From: Octopus sinensis
Lineage: Eukaryota
Assembly: GCF_006345805.1 (NCBI RefSeq)
Contig: NC_043017.1
Location: 11,656,001-11,720,000 of the forward strand
Direction: 5' to 3'
DNA length: 64,000 nucleotides
Part shown: positions 29,304 to 30,315 of the stretch, one piece after another
Layout: each line of letters starts with the position of its first letter
Position numbering within the stretch: position 1 is the first letter of the stretch
The notes under the pieces: model-generated
The model's input: the letters and a program-made list of their open reading frames with translations, nothing else
Database searches by the model: none
What the model was told of the DNA's origin: nothing
Translations under genes and position numbers: made by a program

Positions 29304-29513
29304 CATATTAATCAATATTTTGTAGAATTTTTTGCCACCAGCGGCCTAGTGGGAAAAAATTAAATAGTCATAGACCATTTTTAAGTTCAACATCACAATC
29401 AAGGAACGGCCATAATAGGCCATTCACCCACTAGAAATAACAGCCAAAGCTTCAACCGCAAAATAACATTAATTCCGTAAACCAGGAGAAAATTAAAAAA
29501 CATTTACCCTGTA

Positions 29514-29620
29514 ATTTCTTATACGATGCACCGTTTCATCTACTGTTTAATGGTAAACTAACCTGATTAAATTAAATCAAGCCAATCTTCCATAGGCCCT
29601 TAGATTCGTCAGTAAGAAAT
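29514..29620 (-). ncRNA. Type I hammerhead ribozyme motif (left arm)
   Basis: Minus strand: atttctta CTGACGA atcta...tagat GAAA cggtgcatcg TA taagaaat. Confidence 0.85.
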
Positions 29621-29940
29621 AGCCAGATCGGAACAGATATTTTCACGAGGCATTCTGTCCCTGCCTCGGCAATATCTGACCTAAAATTTTCAAATCATCG
29701 CACTCGCGCCAAATTTATCGGCAGCAAATAAATATAAGCGCGCCATAAATTAACCAGAAAATCATAATTAATCAATATATTGATTAATTATTTTCTGGTT
29801 AATTCCGTAATGGAATCGGCGGCTTATATTTATTTGCTGCGATAAATTTGGCGCGAGTGCGATGATTTGAAAATTTTAGGTCAGATATTGCCGAGGCAGG
29901 GACAGAAATGCCTCGTGAAAATATCTGTTCCGATCTGGCT

Positions 29941-30048
29941 ATTTCTTACTGACGAATCTAAGGGCCTATGGAAGATTGCTTGATTTAATTTAATCAGGTT
30001 AGTTACCATTAAACAGTAGTAGATGAAACGGTGCATCGTATAAGAAAT
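29941..30048 (+). ncRNA. Type I hammerhead ribozyme motif (right arm)
   Basis: atttctta CTGACGA atcta [~59-nt loop] tagat GAAA cggtgcatcg TA taagaaat; 8-bp stem I; predicted cleavage 3' of GUA at 30040. Confidence 0.85.
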
Positions 30049-30315
30049 TACAGGGTAAATTTTTTAATTTTCTCCTTTTACGGAATTAATGTTATTTTGC
30101 GTTTGAAGCTTTGGCTGTTATTTCTAGTGGGTGAATGGCCATTATTGCCGTTCCTTGATTGTGATGATATACATACATATTATATATATACATACATATT
30201 ATATATAAATATATATAATATATATTATATTATACATATATACTATTATATTATTATATTATATTATATATATTATATATATACATATAATATATATATA
30301 TATATATAATATGAT

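What the first reader, a model, noticed from the sequence alone, without database searches (positions are those of the whole stretch)
29391..30166. 776-bp spacerless palindrome with the best-formed hammerhead in each arm
Seen: canonical CUGACGA/GAAA/GUA core, 8-bp stem I, 5-bp stem II with a ~59-nt loop, and near-palindromic stem III, with the two motifs pointing outward from the centre. Inference: a read-through transcript meets the antisense arm first and can fold into a ~385-bp hairpin that masks the ribozyme. That hairpin would be a strong ADAR or Dicer substrate, notable given extensive A-to-I editing in coleoids. Caveat: arm differences are mostly indels, as expected from unpolished long-read error.
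Basis: partly seen in the sequence, partly recalled or inferred. Interest (0 to 1): 0.75.

Follow-up and report, generated by a model that had tools for sequence, protein, structure and literature searches.

The report
Two-armed hammerhead retrozyme insertion in microsatellite
This palindrome is one of many back-to-back insertions of a common, protein-free repeat that carries a hammerhead ribozyme motif; its two arms end at two different fixed points of the repeat, as they do at most two-armed copies examined, which suggests it was likely pasted in by a borrowed Penelope-type reverse transcriptase starting once from each side of a DNA cut, rather than being a regulated ribozyme switch.

Summary
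The palindrome and both hammerhead motifs are real, but the locus is not unique and is larger than stated (29307-30166). Each arm is part of a ~487-nt non-coding unit whose ribozyme half has 3,532 genomic matches. Copies form tandem arrays and back-to-back pairs inside (TA)n. Of 47 two-armed insertions, 40 pair one arm ending at unit site A (~398) with one ending at site B (~500); none of the 40 with two classifiable ends is A+A or B+B. A genome-order test set gave 18 of 22. Opposite arms share subfamily variants (2% discordant versus 23% between loci). This is Penelope-like (PLE) insertion anatomy (inverted arm, one-sided tail, TA target) on a non-LTR retrozyme. The window copy is the symmetric case, where both arms break at a hairpin base. 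A fold-back artefact is unlikely: the arms end differently and the flanks do not mirror. Read-through RNA would bury the ribozyme, and with one ribozyme per strand this copy cannot yield a unit circle, so it is probably a dead end. Cleavage, expression and the partner PLE were not shown. The scan noted the same architecture earlier in other families of this genome.

The parts
29307..30166 (.). Whole two-armed insertion of the ~487-nt hammerhead retrozyme family (860 bp)
   Evidence: Mapping to the family unit; both outer ends abut (TA)n
29307..29777 (-). Left arm (B arm): unit position ~1 through one whole unit to end site B (..ATATTGATTAAT|TA repeat)
   Evidence: the 3' strand of the tail hairpin (~14 nt) is missing, as at one other locus, L006
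29307..29390 (-).
29514..29620 (-). Type I hammerhead motif of the left arm; predicted cleavage between 29522 and 29521
   Evidence: covariation in family
29766..29789 (.). Inversion junction (centre 29777/29778, TATA overlap) at the 3' base of the tail hairpin, a breakpoint hot spot
   Evidence: The exact 24-nt centre occurs at 4 genomic places; 12 of 135 arm 5' ends lie at unit 478-8, 5.0 expected
29778..30166 (+). Right arm (A arm): unit position ~1 to end site A (..TTGATTGTGATG|TA repeat)
29941..30048 (+). Type I hammerhead motif of the right arm: 8-bp stem I, extended helix II, self-complementary 12-nt helix III; predicted cleavage after 30040
29205..29308 (.). Left (TA)n-type microsatellite, part of the target
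30167..30511 (.). Right (TA)n microsatellite, part of the target

Best explanation
The locus is one insertion of a young, multi-copy, non-coding ~487-nt hammerhead repeat (a non-LTR retrozyme), and it was likely written into a TA microsatellite by the RT/GIY-YIG protein of a Penelope-like element priming cDNA from both ends of one cut. Inferred steps: source arrays are transcribed; tandem hammerheads, pairing as dimers through the palindromic helix III, would release unit RNAs that are ligated to circles; the PLE protein cuts (TA)n; one DNA end primes at RNA site A (~130 nt past the cleavage site) and the other at site B (~100 nt further on), on the same template; each cDNA runs for part of a unit or several units; the two cDNA ends join with little or no gap, often at short complementary patches. 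In this copy both cDNAs stopped at the base of the tail hairpin, which makes a near-perfect palindrome. With one sense ribozyme per strand, buried in read-through RNA, this copy would not make circles.
For: Shown: family size, 3,532 matches to a 20-nt ribozyme segment at <=1 mismatch, control 0, and a ~487-nt period in arrays of up to ~15 units. End rule: of 77 non-redundant loci, 47 two-armed, 26 single, 4 complex; 40 of 47 are A+B, none of the 40 classifiable is A+A or B+B (binomial p=8e-13). Test set of 34 loci in order along contig C1: 22 two-armed, 18 A+B, the other 4 with one end cut off, interrupted or over-extended. In an 88%-identical subfamily, 12 of 15 simple two-armed loci read as A+B. 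TA flanks: both sides at 44 of 47 two-armed loci, the 3' end at 26 of 26 single-arm loci. Same template for both arms: 8 of 421 discordant calls at 15 polymorphic sites against 23% between loci; substitution distance 0.86% against 2.0%. Template not cut at the ribozyme: 50 of 135 arms cross two or more cleavage sites, and 5' ends are not enriched there (4 seen, 5.8 expected). RNA structure under selection: circular fold z=-5.4 on the ribozyme strand, the antisense fold near the shuffle mean; 7 pairs with two-sided changes, 96.5% of cells paired; a third subfamily changes letters on both sides of all three stems. Helix III: self-duplex -17.5 against monomer hairpin -0.2 kcal/mol, self-complementary in three variants. 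The genome holds intact RT+GIY-YIG ORFs. The young 781-aa family also ends in (TA)n at two alternative ends ~30 nt apart. From papers: inverted 5'-truncated copies, a tail at one end only and TA bias are PLE traits (PMC8557442); a PLE protein cuts AT-rich DNA, extends both strands and starts at two internal RNA sites that bound the tail (PMC11167929).
Against: No cleavage, expression or circle was shown. The partner element was not identified: the unit has no blastn or tblastx match to 36 GIY-YIG loci. Exceptions to the end rule: L130 has ends at 385 and 398 (close to A+A), and the complex locus L125 contains a B+B pair. The tail (~100 nt) is longer than the 30-40 nt in print. In the Anolis in vitro work no difference in start site between the two strands was seen, so strict A/B pairing is not predicted by it. 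Arm concordance could also come from a uniform source array or from later gene conversion. Circle versus uncut multimer is not resolved: of rare variants in 34 multi-copy loci, 19 are in all copies (11 of them in one diverged locus), 11 in some copies and 193 in one copy. Global folding does not favour the full ribozyme fold in the monomer (stem III probability <=0.17). No target-site duplication can be read in (TA)n.
Confidence: 0.8

Rival explanations
1. Fold-back long-read or assembly artefact: one arm was read twice.
For: Spacerless centre; arms carry about five times the median indel load; no spanning reads were examined.
Against: The arms end at different family-specific sites (B left, A right), as at 58 other two-armed loci. 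The mirror stops at the element: no similarity between 2 kb of left flank (reversed) and 2 kb of right flank outside simple repeats. The same 24-nt centre occurs at 3 other places with very unequal arms.
Confidence: 0.04
2. Single-priming fold-back: one cDNA primed at B snaps back on itself and copies itself out to site A, giving the palindrome directly.
For: Fits this locus, where the A arm is contained in the B arm and both start at the same position. Near-symmetric junctions are somewhat enriched (9 of 40 within 20 nt, 4.25 expected, p=0.02). A second family shows palindromes with clustered centres (17 loci, selected by a palindromic query).
Against: Cannot explain most loci, where the breakpoints differ by more than 20 nt (31 of 40) or the A arm is longer than the B arm could template (e.g. 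L005, L010, L019, L112). Mini B arms of ~14 nt sit opposite full A arms (L031-L033, L039).
Confidence: 0.1
3. A co-opted regulatory hairpin: a masked ribozyme or an ADAR/Dicer substrate kept by selection at this locus.
For: A read-through RNA would form a ~385-bp duplex that buries the ribozyme. Template-level A>G changes exceed T>C on the ribozyme strand (15 versus 7 sites, p=0.012, uncorrected).
Against: The copy is young (2 substitutions from the family majority per arm) and one of hundreds of similar loci. No evidence of transcription or of a host gene. The A>G sites show no ADAR neighbour bias, G>A is equally in excess, and A-U to G-U tolerance in helices explains many of them.
Confidence: 0.05
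4. The palindrome is a MITE-like DNA transposon or a rearranged satellite made by DNA recombination, with no RNA intermediate.
For: Outer ends are inverted repeats; tandem arrays occur.
Against: The two ends are different (A versus B), so there are no terminal inverted repeats. 5' truncations are scattered over the unit while 3' ends are fixed. The structure is strand-specific and the ribozyme stems covary.
Confidence: 0.02

Closest known systems
Metazoan non-LTR retrozymes (Cervera and de la Pena 2020, PMC7229834, results and discussion parts 2-4 of 6 read; Li, Clavereau and Pollet 2026, 10.64898/2026.07.22.740005, parts 1-3 of 5 read)
   Same: Non-coding tandem units of a few hundred nt, one type I hammerhead per unit, GC below 50%, strongly self-paired predicted RNA, dispersed monomers and multimers, PLEs in the same genome.
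   Different: The parts read describe tandem repeats and do not describe back-to-back arms with two fixed ends in (TA)n. The hammerhead here has a long helix II and a 12-nt self-complementary helix III. circRNA and cleavage were not tested here.
EN+ Penelope-like elements: insertion anatomy (Craig et al. 2021, PMC8557442, 12 passages read) and Anolis Poseidon in vitro (Frangieh et al. 2024, PMC11167929, main text parts 1-2 of 4 read)
   Same: Inverted 5'-truncated copy, tail at one end only, AT-rich or microsatellite target, two internal RT start sites downstream of a hammerhead, template not cut at the hammerhead.
   Different: No ORF. Tail ~100 nt instead of 30-40 nt. The two start sites are used almost always one each on opposite strands of one insertion, which the passages read do not report.
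PLE hammerheads with palindromic helix III (Cervera and de la Pena 2014, PMC4209133, 10 passages read)
   Same: Palindromic helix III suited to dimeric cleavage. That paper already reports hammerheads 100-700 bp apart on opposite strands in Schistosoma, linked to truncated PLEs.
   Different: Here stem I is 8 bp and helix III has 3-4 bp, larger than the minimal motifs; pair 10.1-11.1 is A-U, A.C or U.U rather than G-C.
L1 twin priming (recalled, not read here)
   Same: Two primers from one target cut give an inverted segment joined by microhomology.
   Different: In L1 (recalled) the two segments are non-overlapping parts of one linear RNA and one start is the poly(A) tail; here both starts are fixed internal sites and the arms overlap in content.

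Membership tests
Type I hammerhead ribozyme | Core CUGANGA / GAAA / NUH with three helices, helix I open | tested here: met
   0 of 2000 shuffles match; not detected by Rfam models
Type I hammerhead ribozyme | Helices kept by compensatory change | tested here: met
   7 of 36 pairs with two-sided changes, 0 of 500 shuffles as high, though related sequences inflate this control; third subfamily
Type I hammerhead ribozyme | Self-cleavage at the predicted site | not testable with these tools
   needs an in vitro assay
Metazoan non-LTR retrozyme | Non-coding tandem units each with a type I hammerhead, no LTR | tested here: met
   487-nt units in arrays of up to ~15; no similarity to PLE ORFs
Metazoan non-LTR retrozyme | Dispersed, high copy number | tested here: met
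   3,532 matches
Metazoan non-LTR retrozyme | Highly self-paired unit RNA | tested here: met
   circular MFE z=-5.4, strand-specific
Metazoan non-LTR retrozyme | Expressed as linear and circular monomer RNA | not tested
   no read-level data obtained
Metazoan non-LTR retrozyme | At least two consecutive hammerhead units (active copy as defined by Li et al. 2026) | tested here: not met
   this locus has one hammerhead per strand; met by other copies of the family
Penelope-like element (autonomous) | ORF with RT and GIY-YIG endonuclease | tested here: not met
   no such ORF at the locus; no tblastn hit of two PLE proteins in the window
PLE-mobilised non-autonomous element | Inverted 5'-truncated arm, one-sided tail, AT-rich or microsatellite target | tested here: met
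PLE-mobilised non-autonomous element | Sequence shared with the pLTR of an autonomous partner | tested here: inconclusive
   none among 36 GIY-YIG loci examined, out of 5,029 first-look candidates

The most novel reading that the evidence does not exclude
These insertions record an obligatory asymmetric twin-priming step of Penelope-type retrotransposition. A protein dimer holds one circular retrozyme RNA, starts one cDNA at site A and the other at site B from the two ends of a single double-strand cut in (TA)n, and lets both RTs roll round the same circle until they are joined. This would explain in one model the PLE tail, the inverted arms and tandem retrozyme arrays, and the 487-nt RNA would be a ready substrate for testing it.
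Probability: 0.45. Interest if true: 0.68.

Novelty: new member of a known kind. Interest (0 to 1): 0.4.

Why it matters
The locus itself is an ordinary, probably dead-end copy. The family matters because retrozyme mobilisation by PLEs has been argued from co-occurrence and pLTR similarity in the papers read, and how PLEs make inverted arms and tails is called unresolved there. Here the near-strict A+B pairing (58 of 69 two-armed loci in two samples), with both arms drawn from one haplotype, is a sharp and testable constraint on that mechanism. Such insertions also seed the genome with long inverted repeats that could form double-stranded RNA if transcribed; that remains untested.

Tried and rejected
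Rfam: no match at gathering score in the window; at E<=10 only generic hairpin models. Sequencing runs: no RNA holder listed; 20 of 24 listed runs hold half or more of the arm's words, from 10 studies, one of which may be the source; these speak to the family, not to this locus, and no read-level result was obtained. Partner search: GIY-YIG scan, 16 longer stretches, blastn/tblastx of the unit against 36 such loci and tblastn of two PLE proteins against the family loci (hits were neighbouring fragments) did not identify a partner; following two diverged subfamilies gave only more non-coding copies. Collision model (B arm stopping at site A): not supported, 6 of 40, 3.4 expected, p=0.12. 5' ends at the ribozyme cut: not enriched. 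ADAR footprint in the family: A>G excess is weak and without neighbour bias, kept only as a lead. Host gene: 40 of 153 ORFs scanned, only sub-threshold Pfam hits, one to a Tc3-type HTH. The junction-overlap test (17 of 47 with >=3 nt, 6.4% expected) compares BLAST overlaps with exact ones and so overstates the effect. Literature: seven searches listed no paper on a cephalopod retrozyme or on paired use of the two PLE start sites; the library lacks most subscription papers and no supplements were read. PMC13282606 (4 passages) has no occurrence of 'ribozyme' or 'retrozyme'.

Full report
Observation. The arms 29391-29778 and 29779-30166 align as an inverted repeat with 373 identical columns, 2 mismatches and 26 gap columns, without a spacer. 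Each arm carries a type I hammerhead motif pointing outward: 8-bp stem I, CUGACGA, 5-bp stem II, GAAA, helix III and a GUA site. A descriptor finds it in the arm but in 0 of 2000 shuffles. Rfam does not detect it. The sequence enclosed by stem II is an extended helix, not an open loop.

What it is. The arm matches a genome-wide family. The first search scored 40 of 1,506 candidates and gave 99 matches at 90-100% identity, with a period of about 487 nt. An exact 22-nt core occurs 271 times and a 20-nt segment at up to one mismatch 3,532 times, control 0. Mapping the window to the unit shows that the insertion spans 29307-30166. The left arm is a whole unit ending at site B and the right arm stops at site A, about 100 nt earlier; both ends abut (TA)n. 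G000 has 2.72 Gb in 13,516 contigs.

Architecture of the family. I mapped 77 non-redundant loci, taken from similarity and exact-pattern hits and so not random: 47 have two outward arms, 26 one arm, 4 are complex. In 40 of the 47 one arm ends at A (390-404) and the other at B (9-22 of the next unit); none of these 40 is A+A or B+B (p=8e-13). Of the other 7, the window and L006 end at B with one hairpin strand missing, four are interrupted or truncated, and L130 (385+398) comes close to A+A. The complex locus L125 holds a B+B pair. A test set of 34 loci in order along contig C1 (from the first 100 places listed, two already held left out) gave 22 two-armed loci, 18 A+B and 4 with one end cut off, interrupted or over-extended. 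An 88%-identical subfamily reads the same way in 12 of 15 simple two-armed loci. 3' ends are fixed and 5' ends scattered. Junctions have a gap of 3 nt or less in 43 of 47 loci, so 'spacerless' is the norm. What is unusual in the window is symmetry: breakpoints within 20 nt of each other occur in 9 of 40 loci, 4.25 expected. Both arms here break at the 3' base of the tail hairpin, where 12 of 135 arm ends fall against 5.0 expected. Three other loci share the exact 24-nt centre, with a very short B arm.

One template per insertion. Opposite arms disagree at 8 of 421 calls over 15 polymorphic sites, against 23% between loci, and share some rare variants. Fifty of 135 arms cross two or more cleavage sites and 5' ends are not enriched at the site, so the template was a circle or an uncut multimer. 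The rare-variant test did not separate these.

The RNA. The majority unit folds as a circle at z=-5.4, and its antisense does not. In 48 ribozyme copies 96.5% of cells pair and 7 of 36 pairs show two-sided changes (related sequences inflate the shuffle control). A third subfamily changes both sides of all three stems. Helix III is marginal as a hairpin (-0.2 kcal/mol) but gives a -17.5 self-duplex and stays self-complementary in three variants, as in dimer-acting hammerheads (PMC4209133). I ran this energy test after seeing the same idea in scan note e1-9531557.

Mechanism. Shown: the anatomy above. From papers: PLEs show inverted truncated copies, a tail at one end and TA bias (PMC8557442). 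A purified PLE protein cuts AT-rich DNA, extends both strands, starts at two internal RNA sites bounding the tail, is predicted to be a dimer and does not need hammerhead cleavage (PMC11167929). Metazoan hammerhead repeats are expressed as circles, and PLEs are the proposed mobilisers (PMC7229834; preprint). The genome holds intact RT+GIY-YIG ORFs, and the young 781-aa family ends in (TA)n at two alternative ends. Inferred: a PLE protein cuts (TA)n, primes from both ends at A and B on one template, and the cDNAs are joined. No sequence link to a particular partner was found.

Folding agrees that read-through RNA buries the ribozyme (cost 143 kcal/mol). But this copy has one ribozyme per strand, so it cannot release a unit circle, and nothing shows that it is transcribed. 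An A>G excess in template-level variants (15 versus 7 sites) lacks ADAR context and is matched by G>A. A fold-back artefact should mirror the flanks and give equal ends; neither holds. The high indel load of the arms may still be assembly error, and no spanning reads were seen.

Novelty. Retrozymes, PLE inverted arms and tails, and opposite-strand hammerheads 100-700 bp apart are all in print. Seven searches listed no description of a cephalopod retrozyme or of paired use of the two start sites, within the limits of the library; supplements were not read. I had reached the A+B reading before consulting earlier notes (stated). Those notes report the same architecture for other families in this genome; they are unchecked and are not independent evidence. 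Look-ups by sequence and by place found nothing on this stretch. Verdict: a real feature and a new member of a known kind; the locus is ordinary, while the family-level end rule is a useful, testable constraint on PLE mechanism.

Noticed in passing
window 42238-42674 (palindrome 42321-42674): A second spacerless hammerhead palindrome of an unrelated family (CUGAAGA core, GAAACAUAUGUA), also in (TA)n, with a ~85-nt tail on one arm only. The 17 palindromic loci examined all show one long and one short arm, with centres clustered in a ~20-nt spot (selected by a palindromic query).
   Followed up: partly
window 24564 (- strand): A third hammerhead-like motif (CUGAUGA, short helix II, GAAACAAUCGUA) next to a TA repeat.
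   Followed up: no
L085:642-5458 and relatives L086-L089, L093-L099: Young PLE family (781-aa RT+GIY-YIG frame, 98-99% identical copies, preceded by an overlapping 479-aa frame with no Pfam hit). It ends in (TA)n at two alternative ends ~30 nt apart and has a hammerhead-like motif with a U3-A8 core upstream, a variant described in PMC4209133.
   Followed up: partly
L087:6064-7001, L088:5997-7001, L092:6021 and 6416, L068:2621, L085:1-653: Several further hammerhead families with short palindromic helix III near PLE copies, some in inverted pairs.
   Followed up: no
L016, L031, L032, L039, L064: Stuttered or repeated short B-end pieces at junctions, suggesting repeated abortive priming at site B.
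   Followed up: partly
family-wide, unit positions 29, 30, 133, 137, 247, 312, 320, 460: Eight of 15 common polymorphisms are A/G on the ribozyme strand; purine transitions exceed pyrimidine transitions at template level (33 versus 14 sites) but not among single-copy variants.
   Followed up: partly
window 55871-56103: A 233-bp imperfect inverted repeat (91%) seen in the self-comparison.
   Followed up: no
window 4527-5242, 17074-17475, 32870-33288, 39880-40276, 50329-50733, 55156-55531: Several interspersed repeat families of 200-420 bp at 82-94% identity, one in a 185-bp tandem.
   Followed up: no
window 47302-47589 (-): Sub-threshold match to a Tc3-type transposase HTH, probably a decayed DNA transposon.
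   Followed up: no
window 3464-3563: A 100-N assembly gap.
   Followed up: no
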